From contig NC_091991.1 in the NCBI RefSeq assembly GCF_044704955.1, positions 5,146,001 through 5,210,000 of the forward strand: a DNA stretch of 64,000 bases. The letters are read 5' to 3'. This DNA is from Pristiophorus japonicus. Its lineage: Eukaryota. Made by a program: the position numbers and the translations under genes. Shown one piece after another: positions 11,714-36,315 of this stretch; position 1 is the stretch's first letter; each line of letters opens with the position of its first letter. The notes beneath the pieces were generated by a model that was not told the origin of the DNA, did no database searches, and saw nothing but the letters and a program-made list of their open reading frames with translations.

Positions 11714-12429
11714 CTGAAATGAAGAAAATATTGCTGAAATACGTGCACGAGAGAGACACTGCCACAGGAGTACAAATCGGCAACCCCTTCACCACCTTAA
11801 AAAAAATCCCTCCACCACCGGCCCACTCCCCTCCATCACCGGCGCACCGTGGCTGCAATGTGTACTATCCACAGGATGCACTGCAGCAACTCGCCAAGGC
11901 TTCTGAACCCGTGATCTCTACCACCTAGAAGGACAAGGGCAGCGGGTGCATGGGAGCAACATCCAAGTTTCCTTCCAAGTCACACACCATCCCGACTTGG
12001 ACATGAATCGGCCGTTCCTTCATCGTCGCGGAGTCAAAATCCTGGAACTCCCTTCCCAACAGCACTGTGGGAGCACCTTCACCACACGGACTGCAGCGGT
12101 TCAAGAAGGCGGCTCACCACCACCTTCTCAAGGGGCAATTAGGGATGGGCAATAAATGCCGGCCTTGCCAGCTACGCTCGCAAATTGATTTAAAAAATAT
12201 ATAAATGCCCCATAAGTCACAAGTGACAATTAATGGTCCTTTGTGCCTCGATACACCAAAATCTTTTTCACACATTGGCAGCCAGCCCTTTAAAGCTGGT
12301 AAGCTGCAAAAAGAATTTATGTGCGTGTTCAAGCCCATTTATTTGACAGCTTAGATCTCAGAGGAGCAATGTCTAAGAAGGGTCTCAATACCTCCCTATA
12401 TTTTGACTACTCTACATAATCACTAACTT

Positions 12430-13200
12430 TATTCGTAGGAAGAACGCGGAGAGGCAATATAAACTAAAGGGTACAATCCTAAAGGGGATGCATGAACAGA
12501 AAGAACTGGGGGTATACAAGATGTGCACAAATCATTGAAGGTGGCAGGGCAGGTTGATAAAACGGTTAAAAAAGCATATGGGATCCTGGGCTTTATAAAT
12601 AGAGTCATAGAGTACAAAAGCATGGAAATGATGATGAACCTGTATAAAACATTGGTTTGGCCTCAACTGGAGTATTGTGTCCAATTCTGGGCATCGCACT
12701 TTAGGAAGGATGTGAAGGCCTTAGAGAGGGTGCAGAAAAGATTTACAAGAACGTTTCCAGATATGAGGGACTTCAGTTACATGGAGAGACAGGAGAAGTT
12801 TAGAGCAGAGAAAGTTGAGGGGAGATTTGATTGAGGGGTCTGGACAGGATACATATAGAGAGAAACTGTTCCCATTGGCAGAAGTTGTCAAGAACCAGAG
12901 GACATAGATTTAAGGTGATTGGCAAAAGAACCAAAGGTGACATGAGAAAATACTTTTTTTTAAAAACACAGCGAGTGGTTAGGATCTGGAATGCGCTGCC
13001 TGAGAGGGTGGTGGAGGCAGACTCAATCGTGGCTTTCAAAAATGAATTGGATAAGGACTGGAAGGAAAAAAAAAAATGCAGGGCTATGGGGAAAGGGCAG
13101 GGGAGTGGGACTGGCTGAAGTGCTCTTGCAGAGAGCCGGCACGGGCTTGACGGGCTGAATGGCCTCCTTCTGTGCTGTAACCATTCTATGATTCTATTCT
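12430..13200 (+). mobile_element. CR1 LINE 3' fragment
   Basis: ORFs 12523..12834 and 12831..13118 (PQLEYCVQFW, TRGHRFKV). Confidence 0.85.
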
Positions 13201-14006
13201 CTGAGATATGTTAGCCACACTTTAATCGTGCCTCAAGAGCTATCCTTAAAGCTACTGGCTCCAGTGACGGCACTGGCCCCACTCCTGCCCATCCCATCTG
13301 TCCCTCTCCCAGTCACTGCTTCTGAATGGCATCTCTGACCTGCTCCCCTCCTGTGAGCGTGTGTCACGTCCTTGGCTAGCACTTGTGGCCTCCCTGGGCC
13401 CTTGCTTCAGAGTGTGCCCAGCCTCACACCCGAGCATCTGCTGATTCCCACCCCTACCCCTCCTCCCCAAAACCCCATTTCCCCACCCCAGCAGTAAATC
13501 CCGTGCCCCCCCCACCCCAACACCCCAACACTCCAACACACCAGCTCCAGTGCGGCTAGATCCCCAAGTGTCCCCACACTCCAGACCCTACGACGGTATT
13601 CCCTTACTCTCTTCCCAATGCTCCCATTCCCCAGACTCGAGTGCTGCATTTGTAGCTCCCAACCTCAAAAACCCCTGGTCACCAGCTCCCTTCCCACCAC
13701 AGTGCTACCAGAACCTCGCACCTCATTGTGTGTTTCCGTAGTCCACATCATAGCGCCTCCACCCCAAACAACTATTTGCACAGCCCAATTCCAACATCAC
13801 AAAAAAGAGCTGCAATATGCCATTCTCTCGCCTGGCCTGATCCTTATTCCTTTCAGTAAGCTCTGCATCTCTGACACACACACACACACCTTTTCAGTGC
13901 AAGAACGTGTGTGACAGCCATATAGAAGAGAGGAGAAAAAAGGGAACAGAAGCTGGAGAGCGAGAGCGAGAGACAGTGAGAATGTTTAATATAAATTAAA
14001 ATAAAA

Positions 14007-14230
14007 TTAGCTGCTTGGGCCCTAAGCTCTGGAATTCCCTCCCTAAACCTCTCCGCCTCTCTTTCCTCCTTAAAATCTACCTCTTTGACCAAGCTTTTGG
14101 TAATGTGCCGTAATTTCTTCTTATATGGCTCGGTGTCAAATTTATCTGTTTTGTCTTATAACACTACTGTGAAGTGCCTAGGGACTTTTTACTACATTAA
14201 AGGCGCTATATAAATTAAAGTTGTTGTTGA
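14007..14230 (+). mobile_element. L2-type LINE 3' end (related copies at ~17540-17740 and ~22960-23420)
   Basis: CTCTGGAATTCCCTCCCTAAACCTCTCCGCC...AAAGGCGCTATATAAA tail shared with the DeuSINE 3' end. Confidence 0.7.
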
Positions 14231-14344
14231 TGTTGAAAAAATGAATGGAAGAAATATTCTGAGTGCCAAAGGATATGATGAATCTCAGAAATAACTGAGG
14301 AATTGCAGTCTCAAAAGCCTGGGTGAGCTCACTGACAGCGAGCA

Positions 14345-15062
14345 ATGGTCTGTAACTGGGCAGATAATGCTGCTTTTCTGGGCCGGGCCACCGCATACTA
14401 CTCCCGCGAATGGCCCCAGCCTGCTGATGGTCTTGCAGGCCGGGAGCGTGCCAATTGCTGCGTGCTAGGACATGGCTCACCCAAGGCCATCAGCAGGCCG
14501 GGGCCATTAGTGGGAGCAACATGCTGTGGTATACCACTGCAGGGAGCAGCGCGTGCTACTGCAGGAGAGCATCAGCTGCGAGGAGGACGACTGGATTTGA
14601 CGATGCCCAAATCCAGGTCAGTGATTGCAGTGCGGGCAGGTACAGCAGGAATGGAGAGGTTGGGGCGAAGGAGCAGCAAGAGTTTGTAGAGGGAAGTGAT
14701 TGGGGCCCAGGAGAGGCGAGGGTTCGGGTCCCAGAAGAGGCGAGGGCCCAGGGGCAGCACGGGCCCAGCCCACACTGCGATATGTGCGCGCACGAGGTCC
14801 GTGCAGCAGAGCTGGTCTCTAGTCGTCTTGGTTAATCCTTGCCACTGGACCAAGACCTAGCTCTGTCGAGCCCGTGTGGTGGCTGGTGTGCAACGGCCAC
14901 CACACCTTAAAAAAATCCACGCACAGGCATCTTCCACCCTTCAACATGTAGTTCGGGACCTGGAATATTAGGTCCTTTATTGAAACACCTGTGAACTCAT
15001 CCCTTTTCGGCGTGGAAGCAAGTCATCCTCGTTTCGAGGGACTGCCTATGATGATGATGATA
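14345..15062 (+). mobile_element. Non-coding retroposon carrying the RTE 3' tail
   Basis: Ends GGAAGCAAGTCATCCTCGTTTCGAGGGACTGCCTATGATGATGATG, nearly the same as the RTE tails at ~34340, ~52150 and ~57445. The body is not RTE ORF sequence. 5' boundary approximate. Confidence 0.55.
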
Positions 15063-15269
15063 AATGCTGCTTTTCTGTACACACCACGACACCACTTCCT
15101 GTCAACTGGTTAGAGCAAGACCGCTTGAAGTCACGATGGTGGAGGAAAGCCACAATGTGACAGTTTTACCATCGCACCCAAGGCAAGCGAAGATGAGAAG
15201 CCCTGTACGGGAAAACTAGGTTAAAAATGTAATCACATTAATAAATTAACTTCGATGGTCGATACTTAC

Positions 15270-15316
15270 TCATCAGGACGAGGACCATAAGCAACGCTGG
15301 AACATATCCTCCAACC
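15270..15316 (-). CDS. CAPS2: Calcyphosine-2, coding exon 2 (GWRICSSVAYGPRPD)
   Basis: aaacag acceptor and gtaagt donor; 47 nt, phase 0/2, which exactly bridges the neighbouring exons. Confidence 0.8.
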
Positions 15317-15589
15317 CTGTTTACAGAAGGAGGTTTATAAAACCAATTATTACTCAATGACAGTGACCAAAATGCTATTATCAGTCAGCACAATGAACCT
15401 ATAGCGAAGCGTATGAAGTGGTAAGAGGCAAATTAAACCAGTAACAAGCAAAATAAACCAACAACACGTGTGATAAATTAGCAGTGAGATTCATGAGCTA
15501 ACAGTGAGTGTAATAACCAAGCAGATAAACTGAGCTAACTTAATTAGTTAGTAGTGACTATAATGTACCAGCAGTGGGAACAATAAAAG

Positions 15590-16537
15590 AAATGACTTGC
15601 ATTTATATAGCGTCTTTCACAACCATCGGACATCTCAAAGCGCTTTACAGCCAATGGAGTACTTTTGGAGTGTAGTCACTGTTGTGATGTGGGAAATGTG
15701 GCAGCCAATTTGCGCACAGCAAGCTCCCACAAACAGCAATGTGATAATCTGATTGTTGATTGAGAGAGAACTCCCTTGCTCTTCTGCAAAATAGTGCCAT
15801 GGGATCTTTTACGTCCACCTGAGAGAGCAGGTTTTAACATTGCATCCAAAAGACAGCACCTACGACAGTGCAGCGCTCCCTCAGCACTGCACTGGAGTGT
15901 CAATCTAGAATTTTGTGCTCCAGTCCCTGGAGTGGAACTTGCACCCACAACCTTCTAACTCAGGCGCGAAGGTGCCATCACTGAACCACAGGCTTACACA
16001 CATTTTAGCCTTAATTCTATGCTTTTGTAATCTATGGCACCATTAATAAAACCTAGGATCAAAGATTTTTTTTTTTGAATAGCTTTATCAACCTTTCAAA
16101 GATTTGTGTATCTCACCTCAACACACACTGTTCATCAACTCCTTTTAACGTTATATCATTTGGTGTCTATGTCCTCTCCTTACTCATCCTTCCAAAATAT
16201 ATCATCCCACATTTCACAAGACATTAAACCGAGGCCCCGTCTACTCTCTCAGGTGGATGTAAAAGATCCCACGGCACTATTTCGAAGAGCAGGGGAGTTA
16301 TCCCCGGTGTCCTGGCCAATATTTATCCCTCAAATCAACATAACAAAAAACAGATTTTCAGGTCATTATCACATTGCTGTGTGTGGGAGCTTGCTTGTGC
16401 GCAAATTGGCTGCCCCGTTTCCTGCATTACAACAGTGACTACACTCCAAAAGTACTTCATTGTCTGTAAAGCGCTTTGAGATGTCTGGTGGTTGTGAAAG
16501 GCACTATATAAATGCAAGTCTTTCTTTCTTTCTTTCC
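15590..16537. mobile_element. Two DeuSINE copies (15590-15995 minus; ~16215-16537 plus, 5'-truncated)
   Basis: Same central domain and tail as 10635-11087. Confidence 0.75.
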
Positions 16538-16539
16538 TA

Positions 16540-17448
16540 CCTAAGGTGTGATGCCCAGAACTGAACATAGTACTCCAGGTGTGGTCTAATTAGAGCTTTG
16601 TATAGCTGCAGCATAACTTCTACACCCTTTGTATTCTAGTCCTCCAGATATAAAGGCCAGCATTAGATTAGCCTTTTTGATCATTTTTTGTACCTGTCCA
16701 TACATTTTAAAGATCCAAGTACCTGGACTTCCAACTCTCTTTAATTAAATAAATCTGGATTAAAAAGCTAGTATCGGTAATGGTGACATGACAACAGATT
16801 GTGGTAAAACCCCATCTAGCTCACTAATGTCCTTTAGGGAAGGAAAGCCGGTCTGGCCTGTACGTGACTCCAGATCCACAGCAATGTGGTGACTCTCACA
16901 TGGCCTCTGAAGTGGCCTCAAGCCACTCAGTCATACCAAACCGCTACAAAAAAGCAGCTGTTGAAGAAGGCAGCTCACAACCACCTTCTTGAGGGCAATT
17001 AGGGATGGGCCTTTGTTGCACAATCATTAATGTGGCCACACAGAACATTCAGAGCAGTGTGCCAGTGGGCGATTGCCAGCTTTGGTTCTCTTCACTTACA
17101 GACTTGGTGCTTTGTGTGTTTTTGTTGCTATCTTATTTCCTTGTGCTGCTATTTGTGCCGTGTGTTGGCCCCGTTGTGTTTGTGTAGCAGCAAGAGAATG
17201 TGCAGCAAGAAATGTGAGAGAGCGAGAGCAGCTGAAAGGATGGTGATTGATGAAGGGCAGTGTGAGTGTGTGGAGCTGTGGCGGCAGCAAAAGCCTACTG
17301 CACCTGGTATTCCCAGGCAGTCTCCCATCCAAGTACTAACCAGGCCTGACTCTGCTTAGCTTCCGAGATCAGACGAGATCGGGCGCTTTCAGACTAGTAT
17401 GGCCGTAGGCATTTGCTGTTCAACTTTCTCTTTCCTTAAAGGCACACA
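16540..17448. repeat. Paralogous segment of 1264-1313 plus 3267-4402 (CR1 fragment, SINE fragment, 5S spacer, 5S gene)
   Basis: Same order and junctions of fragments. Spacer GTGTGCCAGTGGG...GAGCTGTGGCGGC is almost identical; lacks the CR1 and MITE insertions of the left copy. Confidence 0.92.
17291..17410 (-). rRNA. 5S rRNA gene, copy 2 (120 nt), inside the CAPS2 intron between coding exons 1 and 2
   Basis: Same as copy 1 except canonical GGGAATACCAGGTG. T4 terminator at 17289-17292; same upstream TTTAA element. Confidence 0.95.
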
Positions 17449-17859
17449 TTCTCGTTGCTCAATCATTAACCTATATATAATTCATACATTTTGGTTGAAG
17501 GATAAATGTTGGTATGAATCCCTGATTTCCTTCACTCCATCATTGGTGGCTGTGCCTTCAGCGGCCCAGGCCCTTAACATTGCAATTCTCTCTGCCTCTC
17601 ACTCCTCCTTTGACTCTACTTAAAACCTATCTCTTTGACTCACTTTATGTGGCTCGGTGTCAAACTTTGTCTGATAAACTTCTGTGAAGCGCCTTGGGAC
17701 ATTTGACCACGTTAAATGCACTATATAAATTCAAGTTCTTGTTGTTTCCCTCTCTGCCAATGCTGTCTGGCCTGCTGAGGGTATTCCAGCATTTTCTGTT
17801 TTTTAAAAAAATGAAACCTTCACTAACAGACTTTTGAAAGTGGGGCAAGAGACGGGGGA

Positions 17860-18834
17860 GGGGCAAAATTGCCCCCTGACAAAGTAGACGCACCTACCAT
17901 TTGTGAAGATTTTTTTTGGGGAGGGGGCGGAGAGTAGAACGATATTCAGGACTTGGAAAAAAAATGTAATCTGTGGGCGGTGATCGGGTCGGAAGTGTGT
18001 GTGTGGAGCAGTTCGGATGTCCCTTGGGAGTCATTAGCACCACACTGGTGATGTGACAATGTACCCTCTCCTTCAGTTATAGCGGAGGGCTGCTGCGAAC
18101 TCTGCAGCCACTTTAGTGGCGCCCGCTGGGCCACCAGGGTCTTGGTCAGGCCAGTTGCCCAGTACCCAAGAGGGCATTGCCGGGCTAACTGTTGGCGGCC
18201 CGGCCGAACCCATGGACGCCATTGTCGGACGACAGTTAAAATAAAATGGCGTCTGCGGCAGTGCGCCCTCCTCTTAAAGGGCAGACGCACAGCCCAGACA
18301 CAAGCTGTCGGCGGTGTCATGTATTCAACCAGCATTGTAACCCGTGTATAATCTGACCTAAGTTGTACACCGTGAGAACAATGACCACAAGGTGGTGAAC
18401 TTGTGGGAGACACTCCTAACCTGGACCTTCAGAGATAAGAGGGGAAGCTCCACCCACTTCCATCACTTGAGTGCTAAGGAATAAAGGACAGGTCACAGAC
18501 TGACCTTCTCTCAAGCATGGGCCTCGTGTGCATTTATACTGTACAGTAAGGACGTATCAGGCGGCACTGACAGGCGTCGCTGGTACTCCCGCGGCACAAT
18601 TTCCCGCGTGGGGGCAGAAAGGGTATAGTCGCCGCTCAGAAAGGGTTCAGCACGCGCCCAACAGGGTGGCAACACGGGCAGTGCGGAAACCCGTTTCCAC
18701 CACTTCTGATCTGGGGGGACAATTTAGGAACGGAAGGCCCATCCGTCTGCTCCCAGTCGGTGAGCCCTATCCGCTCCATTGCCGCCTCTTAAGAGACGAT
18801 AATGGGCATTAATGAGGGCGGCAATTTTGGCCCC
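17860..18834. mobile_element. Non-autonomous TIR DNA transposon (possibly PIF/Harbinger-type) containing a solo LTR
   Basis: Termini GGGGCAAAATTGCC ... GGCAATTTTGGCCCC; GC-rich non-coding interior. Confidence 0.6.
18315..18559 (+). mobile_element. Solo LTR, 245 bp
   Basis: TG...CA termini, perfect 5-bp TSD GGCGG (18310-18314 and 18560-18564), internal AATAAA at ~18480. Confidence 0.85.
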
Positions 18835-18965
18835 ACAGTCTTTGGGCTGCTACCTGTGAATACAGAGCGGTTTTATTTTGGGGTGGGGAGGACCAGCAGC
18901 TTAAGCTGGCCAGAAGCAGCAGACCACACCTCCCCCACATGCAAACATCTGCAGGTGCAGCTTAC

Positions 18966-19034
18966 CTGTGCAGGTCTCTGCCTGGCTGAATTCCTCTGGG
19001 CTTGTGTGCCGATGCCTTTAACTTCCAGGTCCAT
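18966..19034 (-). CDS. CAPS2: Calcyphosine-2, first coding exon (MDLEVKGIGTQAQRNSARQRPAQ); exon starts at 19042
   Basis: ttgcag acceptor at 19043-19044, ATG at 19034, CAG|gtaag donor. MDLEVKG matches the recalled human CAPS2 N-terminus, and CAPS2 neighbours the GLIPR1 cluster in human. Confidence 0.9.
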
Positions 19035-19239
19035 TTAAAATGCTGCAACAACAACAACACTGAAGTTAACAGGAATCTTTTGTTGTTGAAGTCTAAACTG
19101 TGCATCGGAAAGCGACGAGGGCCGCACTGTGAGGTGGGCGAGCGGTGCTGTATATATTATATATATGTGCAGGTGATGCTGTATATGTTATATATATTAT
19201 ACACACACACACACACACCTGGAGCAGTTACCTGTGAGC

Positions 19240-22050
19240 CCACCTGGCCCCGGCCTCACCTGTTCCCCCCCCGGCCCACAGCCTCACCTATTCCCCAGAC
19301 ACCCGGCCTCCCCCCCGGCCCACAGCCTCACCTGTTCCCCTGACCCCCAGCCTCACCTGTTCCCTCCCCTCTTCCCCCCCCCCCCCCGCCCACAGCCTCA
19401 CCTGTTCCCCCGACCCCCGGCCCACAGCCTCACCTGTTCCCCTCCCCCCCCCCGGCCCACAGCCTCACCTGACCTCCCCCCCGGCCTCACCTGTTCCCCT
19501 CCCCCCTTGCCCACAGCCTCACCTGTTCCCCTCCCCCCTTGCCCACAGCCTCACCTGTTCCCCTCCCCCCCGGCCCACAGCCTCACCTGTTCCCCTCCCC
19601 CCTTGCCCACAGCCTCACCTGTTCCCCTCCCCCCCGGCCCACAGCCTCACCTGTTCCCCTCCCCCCCGGCCCACAGCCTCACCTGTTCCCCTCCCCCCCC
19701 CGGCCCACAGCCTCACCCTGTTCCCCTCCCCCCTTGCCCACAGCCTCACCTGTTCCCCTCCCCCCTTGCCCACAGCCTCACCTGTTCCCCTCCCCCCCGG
19801 CCCACAGCCTCACCTGTTCCCCTCCCCCCCGGCCCACAGCCTCACCTGTTCCCCTCCCCCCCGGCCCACAGCCTCACCTGTTCCCCTCCCCCCCGGCCCA
19901 CAGCCTCACCTGTTCCCCTCCCCAACCTCCCGGCCCACAGCCTCACCTGTTCCCCTCCCCCCTTGCCCGCAGCCTCACCTGTTCCCCTCCCCCCCGGCCC
20001 ACAGCCTCACCTGTTCCCCTCCCCCCCGGCCCACAGCCTCACCTGTTCCCCTCCCCCCCGGCCCACAGCCTCACCTGTTCCCCTCCCCAACCCCCCGGCC
20101 CACAGCCTCACCTGTTCCCCTCCCCAACCCCCCGGCCCACGGCCTCACCTGTTCCCCTCCCCCCCGGCCCACAGCCTCACCTGTTCCCCTCCCCCCTTGC
20201 CCACAGCCTCACCTGTTCCCCTCCCCCCTTGCCCACAGCCTCACCTGTTCCCCTCCCCCCCGGCCCACAGCCTCACCTGTTCCCCTCCCCCCCGGTCCAC
20301 AGCCTCACCTGTTCCCCTCCCCCCCGGCCCACAGCCTCACCTGTTCCCCTCCCCCCCCGGCCCACAGCCTCACCTGTTCCCCTCCCCAACCCCCCGGCCC
20401 ACAGCCTCACCTGTTCCCCTCCCCAACCCCCTGGCCCACAGCCTCACCTGTTCCCCTCCCCCCCGGCCCACAGCCTCACCTGTTCCCCTCCCCCCTTGCC
20501 CACAGCCTCACCTGTTCCCCTCCCCCCCCGGCCCACAGCCTCACCTGTTCCCCTCCCCAACCCCCCGGCCCACAGCCTCACCTGTTCCCCTCCCCAACCC
20601 CCCGGCCCACGGCCTCACCTGTTCCCCTCCCCCCCGGCCCACAGCCTCACCTGTTCCCCTCCCCCCTTGCCCACAGCCTCACCTGTTCCCCTCCCCCCTT
20701 GCCCACAGCCTCACCTGTTCCCCTCCCCCCCGGCCCACAGCCTCACCTGTTCCCCTCCCCCCCGGTCCACAGCCTCACCTGTTCCCCTCCCCCCCGGCCC
20801 ACAGCCTCACCTGTTCCCCTCCCCCCCCGGCCCACAGCCTCACCTGTTCCCCTCCCCAACCCCCCGGCCCACAGCCTCACCTGTTCCCCTCCCCAACCCC
20901 CTGGCCCACAGCCTCACCTGTTCCCCTCCCCCCCGGCCCACAGCCTCACCTGTTCCCCTCCCCCCTTGCCCACAGCCTCACCTGTTCCCCTCCCCCCCCG
21001 GCCCACAGCCTCACCTGTTCCCCTCCCCCCCCCGGCCCACAGCCTCACCTGTTCCCCTCCCCCCCCCGGCCCACAGCCTCACCTGTTCCCCTCCCCCCCG
21101 GCCCACAGCCTCACCTGTTCCCCTCCCCCCCTGCCCACAGCCTCACCTGTTCCCCTCCCCCCTTGCCCACAGCCTCACCTGTTCCCCTCCCCCCCGGCCC
21201 ACAGCCTCACCTGTTCCCCTCCCCCCTTGCCCACAGCCTCACCTGTTCCCCTCCCCCCCCGGCCCACAGCCTCACCTGTTCCCCTCCCCCCCCCGGCCCA
21301 CAGCCTCACCTGTTCCCCTCCCCCCCGGCCCACAGCCTCACCTGTTCCCCTCCCCCCCTGCCCACAGCCTCACCTGTTCCCCTCCCCCCCGGCCCACAGC
21401 CTCACCTGTTTCCCCCCCGGCCCACAGCCTCACCTGTTCCCCTCCCCCCCCCGGCCCACAGCCTCACCTGTTCCCCTCCCCCCCCCGGCCCACAGCCTCA
21501 CCTGTTCCCCTCCCCCCTTGCCCACAGCCTCACCTGTTCCCCTCCCCCCCGGCCCACAGCCTCACCTGTTCCCCTCCCCCCTTGCCCACAGCCTCACCTG
21601 TTCCCCTCCCCCCCGGCCCACAGCCTCACCTGTTCCCCTCCCCCCTTGCCCACAGCCTCACCTGTTCCCCTCCCCCCCTGCCCACAGCCTCACCTGTTCC
21701 CCTCCCCCCCGGCCCACAGCCTCACCTGTTCCCCCCCGGCCCACAGCCTCACCTGTTCCCCTCCCCCCCCCGGCCCACAGCCTCACCTGTTCCCCTCCCC
21801 CCCCCGGCCCACAGCCTCACCTGTTCCCCTCCCCCCCTGCCCACAGCCTCACCTGTTCCCCTCCCCCCCGGCCCACAGCCTCACCTGTTCCCCTCCCCCC
21901 CCCCGGCCCACAGCCTCACCTGTTCCCCTCCCCCCCCCCGGCCCACAGCCTCACCTGTTCCCCTCCCCCCCCCCCCCGGCCCACAGCCTCACCTGTTCCC
22001 CTCCCCCCCGGCCCACAGCCTCACCTGTTCCCCTCCCCAACCCCCCGGCC
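19240..22050. repeat. ~30-bp minisatellite, roughly 90 units, filling CAPS2 intron 1
   Basis: Unit GGCCCACAGCCTCACCTGTTCCCCTCCCCCCC with variable C-run and TTG/CAAC variants. Confidence 0.97.
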
Positions 22051-22054
22051 TTAC

Positions 22055-22098
22055 CTGTCCGCCTCTTCCCTCGGCCGCCCCCGCGTCAATCACCGCGC
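22055..22098 (-). other. CAPS2: Probable non-coding first exon of CAPS2 (5' end undefined)
   Basis: GGACAG|GTAAGG donor in a CpG-rich unique patch next to an X-box; the downstream ATG exon has its own acceptor. Confidence 0.6.
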
Positions 22099-22112
22099 GT
22101 TGTCATGGCGAC
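22099..22112. promoter_or_regulatory. RFX X-box (ciliary gene promoter motif)
   Basis: GTTGTCATGGCGAC fits the palindromic X-box GTTGCCATGGCAAC. An NRF1-like CATGCGCAC lies at ~22131. Confidence 0.75.
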
Positions 22113-22314
22113 CGCCAGCGTCTCAGCGCCCATGCGCACCGTGCGGCTGGGAGCAATGGTATCCCCCCCTCCCTGCTGCAGCCTCTCATGCACTGGCAGC
22201 ATCCTCATTGAAACCTGCTGCACCCTCTCTTAACAGGATATTCTACTTGCAACCTTATAATAGAATTAATTCCAATCTGTGTGGCTTGTAATGCAGGGCC
22301 AGCCAGGTCCCACA

Positions 22315-22381
22315 ACTCTTTTTGGGGAGTACAAATAAACATTAGGTCAAGTGACCCCCGATCTGGGGGACACTCCAGACA
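22315..22381 (-). mobile_element. 67-bp extreme 3' tail of a Tx1-like LINE
   Basis: 14-bp TSD AGCCAGGTCCCACA (22301-22314 and 22382-22395). The insert is the reverse complement of the 40754-40817 tail, with several substitutions. Confidence 0.8.
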
Positions 22382-23959
22382 AGCCAGGTCCCACACACAG
22401 CAAGAATTGTGATCATCTGTTTCTGTGATATTAATTGAGGGAGAACTCCCCTGCTTAGTGTCGTTTTAGAACGAAAGACTTGCATTTATATAGCACCGTT
22501 CACAATCACAGCAATGAAATACTTTTTGAAGTGTAGTCACTGTTGTAATGTAGGAAACGCGGCAGCCAAGCACATAAGAACATAAGGCCCCTCGAGCCTG
22601 CTCCACCATTTAATACGATCATGGCTGATCCGATCATGGACTCGGGTCCACTTCCCTGCCCACTCCCCATAACCCCTTAATCCCTTATCAGTTAAGAAAC
22701 TGACTATCTCTGTCTTAAATGTTTTCAATATCCCAGCTTCCACAGCTCTCTGGGGCAGCGAAAAGGGAATAGAATAATATGCTGAAAGGCTCAGATGAGG
22801 CGGATGCAATGGGAGGAGACTCGTGCAGAGTATAAGCATTAGTTGTGCCGAATGGTCTGTTTCTGTGCTATATATTCTATCATTGTATAAAAGATGAGAA
22901 ATAAGAAGACTCGCATCCTTCATAAATATGAGCACATCCAAAACTCTGCATGTCCATAATCCTAACTCGCACCAAGTCCAGTTCATCCAACACCCCTATA
23001 CTCACTGACCTACTTTGGCTCCTGGTCTGACAAACACCTCATTTAAAAAACTCTCATCCTTTGTCTTCAAATCCATCCATAGCCTCAGCATTTCCTATCT
23101 CTGTAACCTTCTCCAGCCCTCCGAGATCTCTGCTCTCCATAATTCTGGCCTCTTGTCCATCCCTGATTTTCATCGCTCCACCATTTTCAGCCGTGCCTTC
23201 AGCTGTCAAGGCGCTGAGCACTGGAGTTCCCTTCCTAAACCTCGCCGGCTCTCTCTCCTCCTTTAAGATGCTCCTTAAAACCTATCTCTTTGACCAGGCC
23301 TTTGGTCATCTGTTCTAAAATCTCATGTTGCTCGGTGTCAAATTTTGTTTGATAATCGCCCCTGTGAAGTGCCTTGGAATGTTTTACTATGTTAAAGGCG
23401 CTATATAAATGCAAGTTGTTCTTGACCTAGGATGTGGAAAGAATGGTGCGAGAAATTTGCTGGGGAAAGGGGAGATTATCCACTTTGGCATTCCTGACAA
23501 TAGACAGGGGGCACATACAGGGCAATTGCCCACTCCCACTCTGTTAGTTTCTATTAACAATTTTTTGACTTATTTCCAGTTCTGATGAAAGATCCATATT
23601 GAAACTATTAACTTGGAACATAAGAATTAGGAGCCGGAGTAGGCCATACGGCCATTAAAATCTAACTCTGCATGCATATATATATTCCCATGTTTAAATT
23701 TATAATGGCAACTGCCTATGTGTCAGCCAGTTGCTCAGTAAGTAGCACCCCCGCCTCTGAGCCAAAGGGTTGTGAGTACACATTCCACTCCAGAGACTTG
23801 AGCACAATAAGCTAGGTTCATACTCCCAGACATCCCAAAGTACTTTATAGCCATTGAAGTACTTTTGAAGTGTAGACACTGTTATAATGTGGGAAATGCA
23901 GCAGCCATTTTGCACACAGCAAGCTCCCACAAACAGCAATGTGATAGTGAGCAGATAAT

Positions 23960-27202: not shown

Positions 27203-27495
27203 TCATTTCCCAAACTCATGCATTTTGTTGCGTCTTCTCAGCTCCATGGGTCCATGGGTTTCTGACAAATCTCCAAAGGCTTCATAATCCCCCTCGCTGT
27301 CCTCTGTGGAGATGCTGTACACAGACTCGGTCTCATCAAAAAATAATGTCGCAAACGGTTTACCAGTTATCGGATCAATATCCTCTAACGAATCTTCCTC
27401 ACTATCCGCAAAGATCCGATCTTCAGTCAGTTGTGTCTTTATCTCAATGTCCTGGACAAATTCTTCGAGATTCTCAGAGACAGGAACCAGTTCTT
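27203..27495 (-). CDS. RIC3/CCDC107-family protein, exon 6 (acidic tail ending MELRRRNKMHEFGK*)
   Basis: Pyrimidine-rich ctccag acceptor, phase 1, open frame to TGA at 27203-27205. The C-terminal LR[RK]R motif is typical of RIC3 and CCDC107. Confidence 0.88.
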
Positions 27496-27546
27496 CTGGA
27501 GTGGGGAGAAAAGGTTTAAATCACAATTCTAAACAGAAACTTTATA

Positions 27547-27878
27547 CAGGCAACTCCTGAATATCCGCACGCAGATGCAACGGGAAACGGCATTTAAAAT
27601 TCCGTCTGTCTCTCGCGGCCGCCGCTGACGTCGGAGTCCTTTCGGCCTGGGAAGGCAGCGCGCTTCGGAACCCCGGAGCTAGACAACCTCCTCCTCGAGA
27701 CCAACTGCATGCATGCTGGTAATGTCCATACGTAACTGCCTTGTTACTGTTTGTAGCTGATTGCACAGTATTTATTCATTGAAGTTTTAACTTTATAATG
27801 TCAACTCGCTCTAACGGAGAAATTGTTTACCCGGCATAGCCCAATCCCCAAGGGACCCGGATAATCGAGAGTTGCCTG
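27547..27878. mobile_element. Tc1/mariner (Tigger-like) MITE, 332 bp
   Basis: TA on both sides; TIRs CAGGCAACTCCTGAATATCCG and (reverse complement) CAGGCAACTCTCGATTATCCG. Confidence 0.85.
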
Positions 27879-28282
27879 TATTTTTAATTATATAAGACTA
27901 TATTTCACTGGTATGAAAGTACCACAGATTCATAAGATAAATCTGAAGTTTTTTATTAATATTCTTCCTAAATTTCTCCATTAATTCCTCAAGTAACCAT
28001 CTCTTTAAAAAAGGATATTTTAAGCTTTTTCATACAATAGGATCATTTAAAAATATCAGATTACCATTATGTTCTGGGAACAATAATAACTTGTATTTAT
28101 ATAGCGCCTTTAATGTAGTAAAACGTCCCAAGGTGCTTCACAGGAGCGATCAGACAAAATTTGGCACCGAGCATTCAAAATGGAGATCCTCCACAAGTAC
28201 AACTAAGATAGTGATGTACATCAATTTATCTTAATTGTTTTAAAACCTCAACACTTTATTGCATATACACCAATCATTTTAC

Positions 28283-28380
28283 CATCAAAATTCGGTTCCT
28301 GCCTCTCTTTCATCAGCTGCCTTATTTGCTGAAGCTGTGTCATAATTTCATTCTTCTGCTCAGAAGCGACGGCATCAACA
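28283..28380 (-). CDS. RIC3/CCDC107-family protein, exon 5 (CVDAVASEQKNEIMTQLQQIRQLMKERQEPNFD)
   Basis: gacag acceptor and gtaaaa donor; 98 nt, phase 2/1; coiled-coil pattern. Confidence 0.88.
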
Positions 28381-28554
28381 CTGTCGTGGATGTAAATCAA
28401 TAAGTAAGACTGAGCTGCTAAAGTTAAACAGGGTTAAAGGCATTAAATGGCACAGCAGTTCATCAATATACATAGGAAACGCGGTTGGGTCTTGCAAACT
28501 AAGCATCATATTGCATAATTTACAACTAATTGTGTAACCACTACACTGTTGTAC

Positions 28555-29010
28555 AGTTTTTCCCCAGACTGATTCCTGGGATGGGGGGATTGTCCTATGA
28601 GGAGAGTTTGAACAGACTGGGCCTATATTCACTAGAGTTTAGAAGAATGAGAGGTGATCTCATTGAAACATATAAAATTCTTATAGGGCTCGACAGGGTA
28701 GATGCAGGGAGGATGTTTCCCCTGGCTGGAGAGTCCAGAACCAGAGGTCATAGTCTCAGGATAAAGGGGTCGGCCATTTAGGACTGAGATGAGGAGAAAC
28801 TTCTTCTCTAAAAGGGTGGTGAATCTCTGGAATTCTCTTCCCCAGAGGGCTGTGGAGGCTCAGTCGTTGGATATATTCAAGACAGAGATAGATAGATTTT
28901 TGAATATTAAGGGAATCAAGGGATATGGGGATCGGGCGGGAAAGTGGAGTTGAGGTCGAAGATCAGCCGTGATCTTACTGAATGGCGGAGCAGGCTCGAG
29001 GGGCTGAATT
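28555..29010 (+). mobile_element. CR1 3' fragment
   Basis: ORF 28530..28781 carries LGLYSLEFRRMRGDLIETYKIL. Confidence 0.85.
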
Positions 29011-29699
29011 ATTGTAATCATAAGAGCTGCTAGGAATTTAAAAAAATATATTTATTCGTGGGATATGGGCGTCGCTGGCAAGACTAGCATTTATTGCCCA
29101 TCCCTCAAGGGGCACTACTTCAAGTATTTCATTCTTTTAAAAAAAGATCAAAACAGTTGGACCCTTGGTTGGCATAAGTCAATACTTCACGGTGAACAAG
29201 TTCCACTCCTGACAGCAACATATTTTTGTTTCCAATGCTTTTTCTTTTGTTTAAACAAAGTTCCGTAACTGTGTTATATATTGTGAATGTAAACCCTGCA
29301 ATTTAACATGTTTTAGCAAAAGTTAATCATAAAAAAGAAACATTCATAGACAACTCCTGAAAAACTTAGTGCGAGATAAGAACATCAAGTAATCGTGGGT
29401 AATTCAAAGATCAATTTAGGGGAGAGCTGCTTGCCACAATACTGCTGTGTTGGGATCTCAACTAAAGACATCAAAACTCTACCTCAACTGAGCTTAGCCC
29501 TGGATGGAGAGGGGAGGCTTTGTTACTTTGGCCAAGCCAATTTTTGATAACTAGCAGGTCAACTGTGAAATTTCACTCTCGACATTCCTTTCCTTCCTCT
29601 CTCAATGGACGTGGAGCAACTGTGAAAGAGAGTCCCAGTCTTTAGTAACTTTACCCAACTTAGTTCCACAAGAGACCCCAGTGTGCTGCCACTCACCCC

Positions 29700-29955
29700 C
29701 ACCCATCCAACTCTTGTGCTTCTCTCCACACCTTCTCCAAAACTTGTGTCTCTCTCCCCCTGCTCATCCCAACTCTTGTATCCCTCACCCCTGCTCATCT
29801 CAACTCGTGTCTTTCTCCCCCCGCTTATCCCAACTCGCGTCTCTCTCGCCCTGCTCATCCCAATTCGTGTCTCTCTCGCCCTGCTCATCCCAACTCTTGT
29901 GTCCCTCTCTCCTCCCTGCACATCTCAACTCTTGTGTCTCTCTCCCCTTGCTCGG
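29700..29955. repeat. ~30-bp pyrimidine-rich minisatellite, about 8 units
   Basis: CTGCTCATCCCAACTCTTGTGTCTCTCTCCC-like unit repeated. Confidence 0.8.
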
Positions 29956-30637
29956 GTGCCGATGAGTAGACCGTTGAAGAGGCAGGACATATTGCAGAGA
30001 TGGAACTAGGCAGTCTTGGCGATTGACTGCTAATGGAATTTGTAGCTCAGCTTAGGGACAAACAGCACGCTAAGTTTACGCATTGTCAAGTGCAGCCTGA
30101 ACACGCAACCAGGAAGGAGGGGTGGAATCAGGGCCTGGAATGTGGAGGTTATGGTGAGAACCAAACCAGATAGTTTTGGTCTAGCCAAAGTTTAATTGGT
30201 GCAAAGTTCTAGCTCATCAACAATTTGACATTAGCATGGCAATGATCAAAGTCAAGGGTGATGGCAGAGAGCTTGGTGTCATTGTCTATGTATAGAAGCT
30301 GACTCCGTGCTCATGGATGATGTCTTCAGCAGGCAGTGTGTACAAGACGAAAGGGAAAGGAGCCAAGGATTGAACCTTGGGATACACTGGAGGTGGACAC
30401 AAGGGGAGGGCACTGCAGGAGGTCAGGAAGGTAGGAATGGAAACTGAGAGGGAACCTTGAAAGCAGATGCCAAGGAGCTGAATCACAGAGGAGAAACAAT
30501 GGAGGATAGAAGTCACCGAGAGGTCGAGGTGCGATAATGCGCTGGTTAGAAAATGAGGAAGTTCAACAAAATCAAACCAATATTTAGGGTGAGAAACAGA
30601 ACAAAAAATCCTCAGCGGAACAGCAACGATCACTTAC

Positions 30638-30728
30638 CAGTTGGTGAGAGGATCCAACTCTTTTACTAATGAGTCCAGCATTCTCTCCGTCTGTGCCAAA
30701 CGCATCTCCAGTTCAGAAAGCTGATTTT
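30638..30728 (-). CDS. RIC3/CCDC107-family protein, exon 4 (ENQLSELEMRLAQTERMLDSLVKELDPLTN)
   Basis: tactag acceptor and gtaagt donor; 91 nt, phase 1/2. Aligns by eye with recalled human CCDC107 EQQLAQLTQQLAQTEQHLNNLMAQLDPL. Confidence 0.9.
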
Positions 30729-31548
30729 CTAGTACAAAAGTTTCTTAAGTTACTAAAAAATTAACTAGAGCTGCTTGCAGTCCAAGTATTATTATGCAGT
30801 GGTCACCCTTAACTCAGCTGGTGGCACTCTCGCCATTTGAATCAGGTCATGGGTTCAAGCCCCATTCCAGAGACTTGAGTGCATAATCTAGGCTGACACT
30901 TCAGTGCAGTTCCTGTACTGAGAGATTTCCATTCCCCCTCCCAAAAAACCTTCTTTAAATTCATTCCCGGGATGTGGACGTCACTGGCAAGGCCGGCATT
31001 TATTGCCCATCTCTAGTTTACCTCGAGAAGGTGGTGGTGAGCCGCCTTCTTGAACCGCTGCAGTCTGTGTGGTGAAGGTGCTCCCACAGTGCCGTTAGGA
31101 AGGGAGTTCCAGGATTGTGACCCAGCCACGACGGAGGGACGGTCGACATATTTCCAAATCGGGACTGTGTGTGACTGGGAGGGGAACGTGGGAGGTGATG
31201 CCGCTCTCATGCACCTGCTGCCCTTATCAGGTACAACCTTTCTAGATTCTGCCCAATAGTTAACGTATGGCATGCCTCTTCTGGTGCAGACTGGTTAATA
31301 AATAATAAATAATTACTCACAATTAAGATGAGCGATGCAGAATCCAAGCAGTTTAGCTAATCAACATCACACATGCAGGGGAGGAAAGAACATGCCCACC
31401 AACACAGACAGCTGAGTAACTTGGGTCACCGGTACTGAGTAACACAGATTTCAGTCAAATCAAAGCTGTGCACCAAACTGCGCCAGATTTCACTGCAAAA
31501 ATGTGGCAAATAATAATTACCTGCGCGATTAGCTTAAAAAGTGTATAC

Positions 31549-31621
31549 CTGTATTTTTCCTCTTATTGTCAACCTCCTTATTTTTCTCATTGCTTAATTT
31601 TTCATTTTCATTGAATTTTGT
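31549..31621 (-). CDS. RIC3/CCDC107-family protein, exon 3 (TKFNENEKLSNEKNKEVDNKRKNT)
   Basis: ttttcag acceptor and gtatac donor; 73 nt, phase 0/1. Confidence 0.85.
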
Positions 31622-32395
31622 CTGAAAAGGCAGACAAGATATTTCAAACAATGATAGGAATTACAGTTAGCACGATAAAACCCTTACAAAAACTGCAAGC
31701 TATTTTTCCTGCAATTACTATTTACATGTCACTGGCTCAGTGGGCAGCACGCTCGCCTCCGAGTCAGACGGTTGTGGGTTCAAGTCCCACTCCAGAGACT
31801 TGAGCACAAAATTCCAGGCCGACACCGCAGGGTAGTACTGATGGAGTGCTGCACTGACGGAGATGCTGAATTTCAGATGAGATGCTAAAACCGAGGCCTC
31901 GTCTGCTCTCTCAAGACGGACGTAAAAGATCCCATGGCACTATTTCGAAGAAGAGCAGGGGAGTTATCCCTGATAATATTTGTCCAACAATCAACATCAC
32001 AAAGAAACAGATTATCCTGGTCATTATCACATTACAACAGTGATTACACTTCAAAAAGTACTTCATTGGCTGTAACCTGCTTTGGGATGTCCTGAGGTCA
32101 TGAAAGACGCGATATAAATGCAAATGCAAATTTTATAAAATCCTTACAGAAACTGCAAGCTATTTTTCTTCCTTTAGGACGGCTAGATCGTTGATTTTTA
32201 GCAGTAAATTCTAGACTGGATCCTCTGTAAAATGGAAACAGGCTGCCCAGGATCAGAGCACATATTCTTGGCATCGCTTTTTCAGATGAGACTTTAAAGT
32301 AAGACTCGTTCAGGTGGACGTTAAAGCTCCCATGGCGCCACTTGAAGACGAGCAGGGGAGCAGTTAGCGCTCAATTAAGACCACCAAAACAGATC

Positions 32396-33099
32396 GGGCC
32401 TAAAATTGCGGTCAGAGGCTTCCTTCGTACAAACGCCCCCGACCCGAACAAAATCTACGAATCTATACCTGTTGGTCCCGGAGAAACGCAGGATCCCGGT
32501 CGGAGGCCTAGATTCGCTGCGCACCACAGGGGGCCTGTCTTTGAGGTACGTACGTCCAAGCTGGAGTCACGTGAGCCTGGACAACCAATCACATTGATGA
32601 TAATGGGAAGTCCGTTTGTGCAAGTTCCCATTGCTATCAATGAGAAAACCCCTTAAAGCACTCAAACACAACATAATAAATAAGTAAAACACCTCGCATA
32701 TTTAAAATTAATTGCAATTAAAGTTAATTAAATGTTTAAAAAAAAATTGGAAGGAATTTTTTTAAATATGTTTTAAAACGGTTTAAAATAAACTTACCTT
32801 AATGGACAGGGTTTTTAAACATAAAAATGTGTTTTTAAATTTAATTTTCATATGTTTTAAAACTCTTACACTGGTAAAAGTAAGCTATGTGCCTGCTTTC
32901 ACCAGGCGTAAGAGTTTGAAGCACAATTTCACCCACGCAGATGTACTTCTCCCGGGGATGCGTTTGTTGTGACAAGACAAATCTAGACAGATCGGAAAAG
33001 CCGGTTTTCAGCGCATGCGCATCGCGCCCAGAAAACCCGCTTTTGCGTGGCCTCTGTGAGCACTCCGTACCGACCTGGTGAGGACGGAATTTTAGCCCC
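32396..33099. mobile_element. Non-autonomous TIR DNA transposon inserted into a DeuSINE
   Basis: Termini GGGCCTAAAATTGCGGTC and GACGGAATTTTAGCCCC, similar to those of 17860-18834. SINE sequence is present on both sides. Confidence 0.65.
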
Positions 33100-33551
33100 G
33101 TTAATTGATCATTTATCTCACTGCTGTCTGTGGGACCTTGCTGTGCACAATTTGGCATCGTTGCTTGCTTACAAACGTCTACACTTCAAAAAGTAATTCA
33201 CTGGCTGTAGGGCACTTTGGAAAGTTCCGTGGATGTGAAAGGTACTATATAAATGCAGGTTCCTTCCTTATTTTGGTGCTGTGGCTTACCCTACTTAAAT
33301 AAAGTTACGTTCCACGTCCAGCACTGGGGATAAAACAGGCAATCCGATGGGGGTAATGCTGCCAGGAAAACTTGCTGCTTCAAAGGATTTTGGCTTTTGA
33401 AATTATTCTGTGGGATAAGAGGTACAAATGCTGAACGTGATTTCTTTCTACACTATTTCAGCAGAGGCTTTAACCTATTATGGGACAATGCCTCCAATTA
33501 AATAAAGGGCAGAGGAATCTCAGATGGAGACATTAAGCCTTTTTGCTTGCT

Positions 33552-33875
33552 GGGGTAATGTAGTGGTTACGTTACAGGATTAGTCATCATCCGAGGCCTG
33601 GACTAATAATCCAGAGAGCATGAGTTCAAATCCCACTATGTCAGTTTGAGAATTTGAATTCAGTTCTTTAAAAAAAAAAAATCTGGAAATAAAAAGCTGG
33701 TATCAGTAAAAGTGAAGCTGTCAGATTGTCGTAAAACCCAACTGGTTCACTAATGTCCCTCGGGGAAGGAATCCTGCCATCCTTACCCAGTCTGGCCTAT
33801 ATGTGACTCCAGTCCCACACCAACATGGATGAGTAACTGCCCTCTGAAAGTGGCCTAGCAAGCCCCTCAGTTGAA
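33552..33875 (+). mobile_element. Second tRNA-derived SINE family (fragments also at ~3425-3625 and ~16745-16935)
   Basis: B-box GAGTTCAAATCCC; body CTGGTTCACTAATGTCC...GGAAGGAA...GTGACTCCAG. Confidence 0.65.
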
Positions 33876-35432
33876 TCAATCCACTACAACAAAGTGTCCC
33901 ACCACCGTTTGCTCAGGGCAGGATCGTTCCAAGACTGAGATCGTTAAGATTTTTTGTTCGGTAAGGGTATCGAGGGAGCAAAGGCAGGGAGATGGAGTTG
34001 AGGTGCAGATCAGCCATGATGGTGGAGCAGGCAAGAGGGGCTGAATGGCCTGCTCCTGCTCCAAACCAAGGATGGTGAATAAATGTGACGACCACGTCCT
34101 GACAGTGAATTAAATAAAATGTACAAGATGTTGCAGCAGAGTCCTGAGCAAGTGGCATTTGATTGTAGCTTGGAATGTGATGTAGTGCAGCGGATGGGAG
34201 ACAGGATCGCTAGTTGGCACACCACAATGCTCTTAGAGAATCTCTTCTGTACCATCTCCATGACCTACACATCCTTACTAAAGTAGGGTGCCCAACAGAC
34301 ATAGTATTCTAATTGTAACCTAACTAATGATTGTCATCATCATCATAGGCAGTCCCTCGGAATCGAGGAAGACTTGCTTCCACTCTTAAAGCGAGTCCTT
34401 AGGTGGCTGAACAGTCCAATACGAGAACCACAGTCCCTGTCACAGGTGGGGCAGATAGTCGTTGAGGGAAGGGGTGGGTGGGACTGGTTTGCCGCACGCT
34501 CCTTCCGCTGCCTGCGCTTGGTTTCTGCATGCTCTCGGCGATGAGATTGAATCTACAAGTTTGGCATTACCACTTTGCTTTTGTACTCTATGCCTCTTAA
34601 TATAAAGCCTAGGATTCCACATGCTTTAATCAACCTATCTTCCTACTCTTAATGATTTGTGTATCTGAACAACAACTTGTATTTATATAGCACCTTTAAT
34701 GTAGTAAAACATCCCAAGGCGCTTCACAGGAGAGTTATAAAACAAAATGTTATATGTAGCCACTGTTGTACTGTCGGAATATATTGAGATCAATGATTTT
34801 AACATTGTCCCCATCACTATTTACATTCTTCCAGTCCAAACCACATCCAACAGCCGATGTTCCCGCTAAGCTGCGTGCTCGGCCGTGTGGTCATTGTAAG
34901 ATCCCACGCAGGCCGCTCACCAGCTCGTCCATTGTAAATACCGCGCAGAACTTTAAAGGGACTGTGCAGAGCAAAGCACAACGTACAGGGAACATTGGCA
35001 ATATCCGCTAGCCTCTGGTTAGCCAAATTTCCATCCATTCTGCCACATATTGTACATTATACATTTAGTTGTGAAATTGTAAATACTACACAGGTATTGA
35101 CAAATAACAAATATGTTTTGTTACACTGGAAAAGAACTATCACAGACAAAAAACCCCAAAAACTTCTATACACATGGATCATGGACCAACACAGTACAAA
35201 GAGCGAGTCCCTTCCAGTTTTATTTGCATTATTGTCACCTTGCCCGGTGAGAAAACATTAGAAAATCAGGAAATGTAAACACTTTGACAATTCAGTGGCA
35301 ACGGTGAGCAGCATTTACAAGCATTCTTCGTTACAGTATTATGTTACTAACAGATACCCACAAAATATTTGCGGTCAAATTAGTATCTTTATTGCAACAG
35401 TACTTGTTTAGATATCATTCTTTTCGTCTATA

Positions 35433-36059
35433 GAATCAATAATGATGTCCTCCCTCCCTCCTCCTCCTTCGCTCCCTCTCCCCCTCCCATCCACTCACTC
35501 TCTCCCTCCCTCTGTCCTTCTCTCTCCCTCCCTCTGTCCATCTCTCTCCCTCCCTCTGTCCATCTCTCTCCCTCCCTCTGTCCATCTCTCTCCCTCCCTC
35601 TGTCCATCTCTCTCCCTCCCTCTGTCCATCTCTCTCCCTCCCCCTCCCACCCACCCTCTCCCTCCATCCATCTCTCTCCCTCCATCCCACCCACCCATTC
35701 GCTCCCTCCCTCCATCCGTCTCTCTCCCTCCCCCTCCCACTCTCTTCCTCCGTCCGTCTCTCTCCCTCCCACCCACTCTCTCCCTCCCCCTCCCACCCAC
35801 CCTCTCTCCCCGTCCCACTCACTCACTCTCTTCCTCCCTCCCTCCCCCTTCCACTCTCTTCTTCCTTCTCTCTCACCCACCACTCCCGCCACGTGCTCCT
35901 CTCGGCTCCGCAGCAATGCCCGGGGAGGATCCAACCCCCCCTGCCTGCACCCACTAGGTGGGAGAGGGAGGGAGAGAGATGGAGGGAGGGGGAGAGGGAG
36001 AGAAGGAGGGGGGGGGGAAAGTGAGAGAGAGGAGGGAGGGAGGACATCATTATTGATTC
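35433..36059. repeat. Low-complexity CT/GA tract bounded by a perfect 31-bp inverted repeat
   Basis: GAATCAATAATGATGTCCTCCCTCCCTCCTC (35433-35463) and its exact reverse complement at 36029-36059. Confidence 0.85.
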
Positions 36060-36315
36060 GCATCCACTGCCACCTCCTCATTGGAGCAGACTCAGCGCCA
36101 CTAAAACTTTTAAAATTCGCGCCATCACTCCCTGCCCTGATTGGTTGCGGGGCTGGGCAGGCCCTGATCACCCATTGGTCAGTGCAACTGTCCCTCAGTC
36201 CGGACCACGTGCTCCCGCAACGCCTCCCCCCCCCCCCGCCCCCCCGCCTCAGGACAGACAAAAACTGACCTTTATTATTATAGATTTATAAAGTGCACTA
36301 CAGTGATGGGCTTAC

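What the first reader, a model, noticed from the sequence alone, without database searches (positions are those of the whole stretch)
19240..22060. CAPS2 intron 1 is a ~90-fold tandem array of consensus 5' splice sites in G-quadruplex context
Seen: on the transcribed strand each unit reads GGGGGGAGGGGAACAG|GTGAGGCTGTGGGCC, a strong CAG|GTGAG donor. The array begins immediately after the probable real donor GGACAG|GTAAGGCC, which it resembles, and the unit has no ATG. Inference: the minisatellite arose by amplifying the exon 1/intron 1 junction. Because exon 1 appears non-coding, alternative donor use would create a ladder of G-rich 5' UTR lengths; the array could also be a U1 snRNP loading platform whose copy number tunes expression.
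Basis: partly seen in the sequence, partly recalled or inferred. Interest (0 to 1): 0.75.

Follow-up and report, generated by a model that had tools for sequence, protein, structure and literature searches.

The report
Splice-donor minisatellite in shark CAPS2 intron
A 32-base repeat carries a splice-donor signal about 85 times directly behind the likely first exon of a shark calcyphosin-2 gene; it is likely a by-product of repeat instability in which the cell would still mostly use the first signal, a layout already known from several human and lancelet genes.

Summary
The array is real. On the minus strand, 85 tandem units (modal 32 nt) run from 22054 to 19259, giving 86 donor-like sites, not ~90: one CAG|GTAAGG, 83 CAG|GTGAGG and two variants, with no ATG. 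The gene is calcyphosin-2. A stop codon sits in frame just before its ATG, so the upstream exon is non-coding. That exon is inferred, not seen.

This is the known junction-spanning minisatellite layout (human F7, 6-16, CBS, LMNB2, PDGF; amphioxus 'mirages'), where only the first one to three donors are used. Earlier scan notes report the same kind in other shark and chimaera genes (unchecked).

A 470-nt internal duplication shows recent turnover. The neighbouring CCDC107 gene also has an array starting at intron +1, but it repeats mostly weak donors, which points to a mutational origin. I found no sign of selection on the donors (low power).

No RNA evidence was obtained, so donor use is untested. 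The donors are near-consensus and carry no reading-frame penalty, so some leak to donors 2-3 is plausible. New member of a known kind; interest 0.27.

The parts
22099..22112 (.). X-box-like (RFX) palindrome, likely promoter/TSS marker
   Evidence: Matches a recalled X-box consensus on both strands. The window-wide count of 5 is not above chance (15 of 100 shuffles), so support is positional only.
22055..22200 (-). Putative non-coding exon 1 of CAPS2 (5' edge unknown)
   Evidence: 17 CpG in 22001-22200 against 0-3 per 100 nt further upstream; upstream ATGs all stop before the donor. Inferred; not seen in RNA.
22049..22057 (-). First (probable authentic) donor CAG|GTAAGG, +1 at 22054
   Evidence: 8 of 9 consensus positions
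19243..22054 (-). Minisatellite of 85 units (modal 32 nt), each junction between units forming a donor-like site; G-rich on the non-template strand; no ATG
20053..21028 (-). Exact internal duplication inside the array (506 nt identical at offset 470; 14 units)
   Evidence: a run of 14 identical units against a shuffle mean of 3.8 and maximum of 7 in 1000
19213..19490 (-). Degenerate intron-proximal edge of the array, with short units and three further CAG|GT sites
19043..19075 (-). Intron 1 branch-point-like motif, (GTT)n tract and AG acceptor
   Evidence: 65% pyrimidine upstream against a mean of 13% for array units
18966..19042 (-). CAPS2 exon 2 with start ATG at 19034, preceded by an in-frame TAA
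   Evidence: Translation equals the N-terminus of P0001
15270..15316 (-). CAPS2 coding exon
   Evidence: Translation matches P0001
11668..11713 (-). CAPS2 coding exon
   Evidence: Translation matches P0001
10259..10384 (-). CAPS2 coding exon used for gene identification
   Evidence: 100% identity to P0001 over 42 aa
41891..42789 (-). Internal control: CCDC107 intron-1 minisatellite starting at intron position +1 and repeating mostly weak donors

Best explanation
This is a 32-base G-rich minisatellite of 85 units lying directly behind the likely first, non-coding exon of shark CAPS2; it likely grew by slippage and unequal exchange from a seed of about 4-6 exon bases plus about 25 intron bases, and the first donor (22054) is likely the one mostly used, leaving the other 85 as largely silent pseudo-donors that are spliced out. 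Shown: the array's anatomy, the gene identity, that CAPS2 coding starts in exon 2, and recent internal duplication. Inferred: (1) exon 1 lies at about 22055-22200; (2) the G-rich start of the first intron, predicted to fold into G-quadruplexes, seeded the instability; (3) the first donor wins because it is transcribed first, is at least as strong (A at +3), and has few G-runs on its exon side while every array donor has many; (4) copy number varies between individuals with little effect on the mRNA.
For: Layout: same as human F7 IVS7 (4 exon + 33 intron bases; only the first donor used, and the next one taken over when it is mutated), LMNB2 and PDGF (first only), 6-16 and CBS (first plus two) (PMC1557585). 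Amphioxus mirages do not disturb splicing and have diverged edge units (PMC3087553), as the edges do here. Turnover: 506-nt exact duplication. Internal control: the CCDC107 intron-1 array also starts at +1 (P0035 places the exon end there). Of its 66 GT sites the commonest repeated forms match only 4-5 of 9 consensus positions, and 6 (including the real donor) reach 7-8, so junction-anchored arrays arise here without good donors. Selection: 0 of 4 core substitution events fall in the 9 donor columns of 21 scored, p about 0.11 (events counted by eye). G-runs: 2 GGG in the 60 nt upstream of the first donor against 5-8 for the 6 other sites sampled. [quoted passage not shown]
Against: No RNA evidence for this locus; exon 1 and donor use are untested. 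The array donors are much stronger than F7's and differ only at +6 from CAG/gtgagt, which took about 70-90% of splicing from F7's weaker first site. With two strong sites, use of the intron-proximal one rises beyond about 30 nt of separation and is about 100% at >=45 nt (PMC3413131 passages); spacing in the core here is mostly 30-38 nt. A non-coding exon has no reading-frame penalty for leak. The conservation test has low power, and its trend (no substitution in donor columns) leans the other way. The CCDC107 control is a single case. Roles of G-runs as exonic silencers and of the cap in favouring the first donor are recalled, not tested.
Confidence: 0.64

Rival explanations
1. Leaky short ladder: the array arose neutrally, but donors 2-3 (22024, 21992) are used appreciably, as in 6-16 and CBS, adding 30-62 nt of G4-prone sequence to the 5' UTR and likely lowering translation of those isoforms.
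For: 6-16 and CBS use two extra donors. Near-consensus pseudo-sites compete in F7. No frame constraint here. The predicted fold of four modal units is -105.3 kcal/mol with G4 allowed against -33.8 without.
Against: The first donor has A at +3 and less upstream G-run. F7, LMNB2 and PDGF use the first only. Earlier scan notes on other shark and chimaera genes report first-donor use (unchecked).
Confidence: 0.2
2. The true first exon or start site lies elsewhere (further upstream, or at the array's downstream edge using a site such as 19231), so the array is merely intronic or promoter-side.
For: Exon 1 is inferred only. The X-box count is not above chance. Ray models with an N-terminal extension (6 of 34 CAPS2 proteins) do not resemble any frame of the 22055-22235 region.
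Against: A CpG peak, an X-box-like palindrome and a strong donor coincide within 60 nt; X-boxes cluster within 500 bp of start sites (PMC5838959 passages). Exon 2 holds only 8 nt before the ATG and has a proper acceptor, so an upstream exon is needed.
Confidence: 0.07
3. Selected regulatory device: the array is kept as a U1-loading platform (or a DNA-level platform: each unit also holds CAGGTG and GGGGAGGGG motifs) whose copy number tunes CAPS2 transcription.
For: Two alternative strong donors can each bind U1 in complex E. No substitution in donor columns in the 77 core units.
Against: The conservation excess is not significant (p about 0.11). The neighbour gene has a comparable array with weak donors. 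Surplus U1 is purged at complex A. No conservation or expression data.
Confidence: 0.05
4. Proximity rule dominates: a far-downstream donor is used and mRNAs carry a kilobase-scale G-rich 5' UTR.
For: Intron-proximal preference among strong sites.
Against: Such a leader (up to about 2.9 kb, about 60 predicted G4s) would likely block scanning. No such outcome is reported for the five human arrays.
Confidence: 0.04

Closest known systems
Human F7 IVS7 37-bp VNTR (Borensztajn et al. 2006, PMC1557585; read: abstract, introduction and results passages, results section 9 and Discussion in full)
   Same: First monomer spans the exon/intron junction with about 4 exon bases; the donor is repeated in every unit downstream of the real one.
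   Different: 85 extra donors against 4-8; near-consensus donors against a moderate one (CV 74); the first donor differs from the copies at +3; it follows a likely non-coding first exon, so leak would change only the 5' UTR; units are G4-prone; donor use not measured here.
Human 6-16 (IFI6), CBS intron 13, LMNB2 and PDGF intron 4 minisatellites (seen only as summarised in PMC1557585's introduction and reference list; the 6-16 paper is not held)
   Same: Arrays of 10-25 repeated donors at an exon/intron border.
   Different: 6-16 and CBS use two extra donors, LMNB2 and PDGF none; the CAPS2 array has more copies.
Amphioxus 'mirage' minisatellites (Adh3, globins; PMC3087553, passages read)
   Same: Tandem duplication of an exon/intron boundary, homogenised core, diverged edges.
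   Different: Their length polymorphism and normal splicing were shown; here neither could be tested.
G-rich intron 1 elements (GrIn1; Eddy and Maizels 2008, PMC2275096, abstract and section list read)
   Same: G4 potential on the non-template strand at the start of a first intron.
   Different: Those are short elements conserved to frogs; this is a 2.8-kb tandem expansion of unknown conservation.

Membership tests
Junction-spanning donor minisatellite (F7/6-16/CBS type; amphioxus mirage) | Head-to-tail minisatellite starting at the junction | tested here: met
   85 units from 22054
Junction-spanning donor minisatellite (F7/6-16/CBS type; amphioxus mirage) | Donor sequence repeated in each unit | tested here: met
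   83 CAG|GTGAGG plus 2 variants against the first CAG|GTAAGG; one difference at +3
Junction-spanning donor minisatellite (F7/6-16/CBS type; amphioxus mirage) | The first site is an authentic exon/intron boundary | tested here: inconclusive
   CpG peak, X-box-like motif and need for an upstream exon support it; no transcript seen
Junction-spanning donor minisatellite (F7/6-16/CBS type; amphioxus mirage) | Only the first (or first 2-3) donors are used | not testable with these tools
   No RNA holder listed; no reads laid on the locus
Junction-spanning donor minisatellite (F7/6-16/CBS type; amphioxus mirage) | Copy-number polymorphism | not testable with these tools
   One haplotype only; the exact 470-nt duplication implies recent turnover
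Junction-spanning donor minisatellite (F7/6-16/CBS type; amphioxus mirage) | Homogenised core with diverged edge units | tested here: met
   Unit 0 and units 78-85 diverge; the core is near-invariant
GrIn1 first-intron G4 element | G4 potential on the non-template strand at the 5' end of intron 1 | tested here: met
   59 of 85 units carry the canonical motif; G4Hunter 1.79 (prediction only)
GrIn1 first-intron G4 element | Conservation across vertebrates | not testable with these tools
   No orthologous DNA obtained
Intron-generating AG|GT tandem duplication (Rogers-type model, as described in PMC3087553) | Unit can serve as acceptor as well as donor (polypyrimidine tract before AG) | tested here: not met
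   Longest pyrimidine run 3 nt; mean 13% pyrimidine upstream against 65% at the true acceptor

The most novel reading that the evidence does not exclude
Because these donors are near-consensus and sit behind a non-coding first exon, the array escapes the first-donor rule and works as a translational dial: each step down the array adds about one RNA G-quadruplex to the CAPS2 5' UTR, and repeat number or variant pattern shifts the isoform mix. More widely, cartilaginous-fish genomes may systematically grow such arrays at first donors (two neighbouring genes in this one window do).
Probability: 0.1. Interest if true: 0.65.

Novelty: new member of a known kind. Interest (0 to 1): 0.27.

Why it matters
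If ordinary, it is another large example showing that the spliceosome tolerates dozens of decoy donors. It has some value as a test substrate: near-consensus donors about 32 nt apart, with no reading-frame constraint, put the 'first-come scanning' model (F7) against the 'intron-proximal' rule at close to the spacing where the two diverge. If the ladder were real, it would be a repeat that tunes translation by adding G-quadruplexes to a 5' UTR through donor choice.

Tried and rejected
Whole genome: none is held, so no genome-wide count of junction-anchored arrays was possible.

Sequencing runs: 13 listed, all with a small share of words (0.05-0.07); no RNA holder listed. This says nothing about expression. 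No reads were laid on the locus, so donor use and exon 1 remain open.

Rfam over 18500-23000: 0 matches.

Units as acceptors or recursive sites: rejected, no pyrimidine tract.

Coding role: rejected. The minus strand has 26-31 stops per frame and no ATG; two plus-strand frames are open for 938 codons but contain no Met, as expected of a C-rich repeat.

Large exon-side duplication: not significant (21 of 300 shuffles). Selection on donor columns: not significant.

Assembly artefact: unlikely, given ordered variant units and diverged edges. G-run lengths, the single extra-G unit and the exact 470-nt duplication cannot be checked without reads.

MaxEntScan was not available; consensus-match counts were used instead.

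Literature searches listed no paper on this locus or on such arrays in sharks; the library is partial. PMC10078293 passages were read and were not informative. The 6-16 paper is not held. No supplements were read.

Full report
OBSERVATION. On the minus strand the site CAG|GTAAGG (+1 at 22054) is followed without a gap by 85 tandem units. The unit junctions give 85 more donor-like sites down to 19259: 83 CAG|GTGAGG, one TAG|GTGAGG and one with an extra G. Three degenerate CAG|GT sites follow at 19243, 19231 and 19218. TRF reports period 32, 80.1 copies and 92% matches for the core. The count is therefore 86 rather than ~90. There is no ATG in the array. 84 of the window's 93 MAGGTRAG matches (recalled consensus) lie here, against a chance mean of 10.7; that excess follows trivially from tandem repetition. 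G-quadruplex context is predicted only: 59 of 85 units hold the canonical motif, mean G4Hunter is 1.79, and four modal units fold at -105.3 kcal/mol with G4 allowed against -33.8 without.

GENE. Exon 10259-10384 is 100% identical to a protein named calcyphosin-2 X2 of Pristiophorus japonicus (10 hits among 17 candidates, all named calcyphosin-2). Exons 18966-19042, 15270-15316 and 11668-11713 give its N-terminus. Exon 2 has 8 nt before ATG 19034, ending in an in-frame TAA, so no upstream exon can extend the protein. Of 34 shark and ray CAPS2 proteins fetched, 20 start at the same Met, 6 ray models are extended and 8 start elsewhere.

EXON 1 IS INFERRED. 22001-22200 holds 17 CpG against 0-3 per 100 nt upstream. 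An X-box-like palindrome sits at 22099-22112 (recalled consensus; the window-wide count is not above chance, 15 of 100 shuffles). X-boxes cluster within 500 bp of start sites (PMC5838959, passages). All five ATGs in 22055-22300 stop before the donor, so donor choice would change only the 5' UTR.

ORIGIN. The real junction and the unit agree at 11 of 14 positions from -6 to +8. The first unit's short form recurs at the far end (units 78 and 85), and its TT-containing G tract recurs in the 37-nt variants. Exon-side likeness further upstream is not significant (21 of 300 shuffles), so the seed held about 4-6 exon bases, as in F7 (4 bases). An exact 506-nt duplication at offset 470 (14 units; shuffle maximum 7 in 1000) shows recent turnover. 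The units cannot be acceptors: the longest pyrimidine run is 3 nt.

INTERNAL CONTROL. The next gene, CCDC107 (P0035, 100%), has an intron-1 minisatellite (41891-42789) that also begins at intron position +1, and a GC-box-like array just upstream. Of the 66 GT sites in that array the commonest repeated forms match only 4-5 of 9 consensus positions, and 6 (including the real donor) reach 7-8. Junction-anchored arrays thus arise in this region without good donors, which favours mutation over selection; it is one case. In the CAPS2 core (77 units), 0 of 4 substitution events counted by eye fall in the 9 donor columns of 21 scored (p about 0.11). This is no evidence of selection, with low power and a trend that leans slightly towards it.

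MECHANISM. Most likely the G-rich start of intron 1 expanded by slippage and unequal exchange, and the first donor is used. G4 potential at first-intron starts is common (PMC2275096 abstract), and G4 minisatellites are unstable (PMC3486850 abstract). In F7 only the most upstream donor is used, and the next takes over when it is mutated; LMNB2 and PDGF behave alike, while 6-16 and CBS use two extra sites (PMC1557585). Amphioxus mirages do not disturb splicing (PMC3087553 passages). Here the first donor also has A at +3, and 2 GGG upstream against 5-8 for the six other sites sampled. That upstream G-runs silence and that the cap favours the first donor is recalled, not tested.

EVIDENCE AGAINST. 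In F7, CAG/gtgagt pseudo-sites took about 70-90% of splicing from a weaker first site, and the units here differ from that only at +6. With two strong sites, intron-proximal use rises beyond about 30 nt and reaches about 100% at >=45 nt (PMC3413131 passages); core spacing here is mostly 30-38 nt. There is no frame penalty for leak. I therefore give 0.64 to first-donor dominance, 0.2 to a short leaky ladder, 0.07 to another first exon, 0.05 to a selected platform and 0.04 to far-downstream use.

LIMITS. Donor use, exon 1 and polymorphism are all untested.

COMPARISON AND VERDICT. It works like, and by the features I could test belongs to, the junction-spanning donor minisatellites. I found the F7 precedent by my own search before seeing that earlier scan notes reached the same reading for shark GIPC1 and EMILIN1 and chimaera MRPS18C and DCTN1 (unchecked AI notes, not independent support). 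One such note gave the 'mirage' lead, which I checked in print. Searches listed no paper on this locus. What sets it apart is high copy number, strong donors, a non-coding first exon and G4-prone units, which make it a good test substrate but not a new kind of system. New member of a known kind; interest 0.27.

Noticed in passing
window 41891-42789 (-): CCDC107 intron 1 also opens with a ~20-23-nt minisatellite starting exactly at intron position +1 and repeating the intron half of the donor; two neighbouring genes thus both have junction-anchored first-intron arrays.
   Followed up: partly
window 42937-43378: Tandem array of GC-box-like units (periods 18/26/44) immediately upstream of the CCDC107 start codon, in its likely promoter.
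   Followed up: no
window 27206-42925 and 10259-22200 (-): CCDC107 (RIC3-family domain PF15361) lies directly upstream of CAPS2 on the same strand; from recall, these genes are on different chromosomes in human.
   Followed up: no
window 15167-15202 (-): A short open stretch with AG and GT borders just downstream of the 15270-15316 exon looks exon-like but is absent from both sawshark protein models.
   Followed up: no
window 19240-22054 (+): Two plus-strand frames are stop-free for 938 codons across the array but contain no Met; likely a side effect of the C-rich unit.
   Followed up: yes
window 43749-43897, 29741-29953, 35449-35874, 7590-7904: Other tandem repeats: an exact 73-nt duplication at the edge of an interspersed repeat, a 30-nt pyrimidine-rich array, and purine/pyrimidine low-complexity arrays; the region is rich in such repeats.
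   Followed up: no
proteins P0007, P0026, P0027, P0031, P0029, P0034: Ray CAPS2 models carry 10- or 18-residue N-terminal extensions; the shared last five residues suggest a slightly longer exon 2 and an upstream exon in rays.
   Followed up: partly
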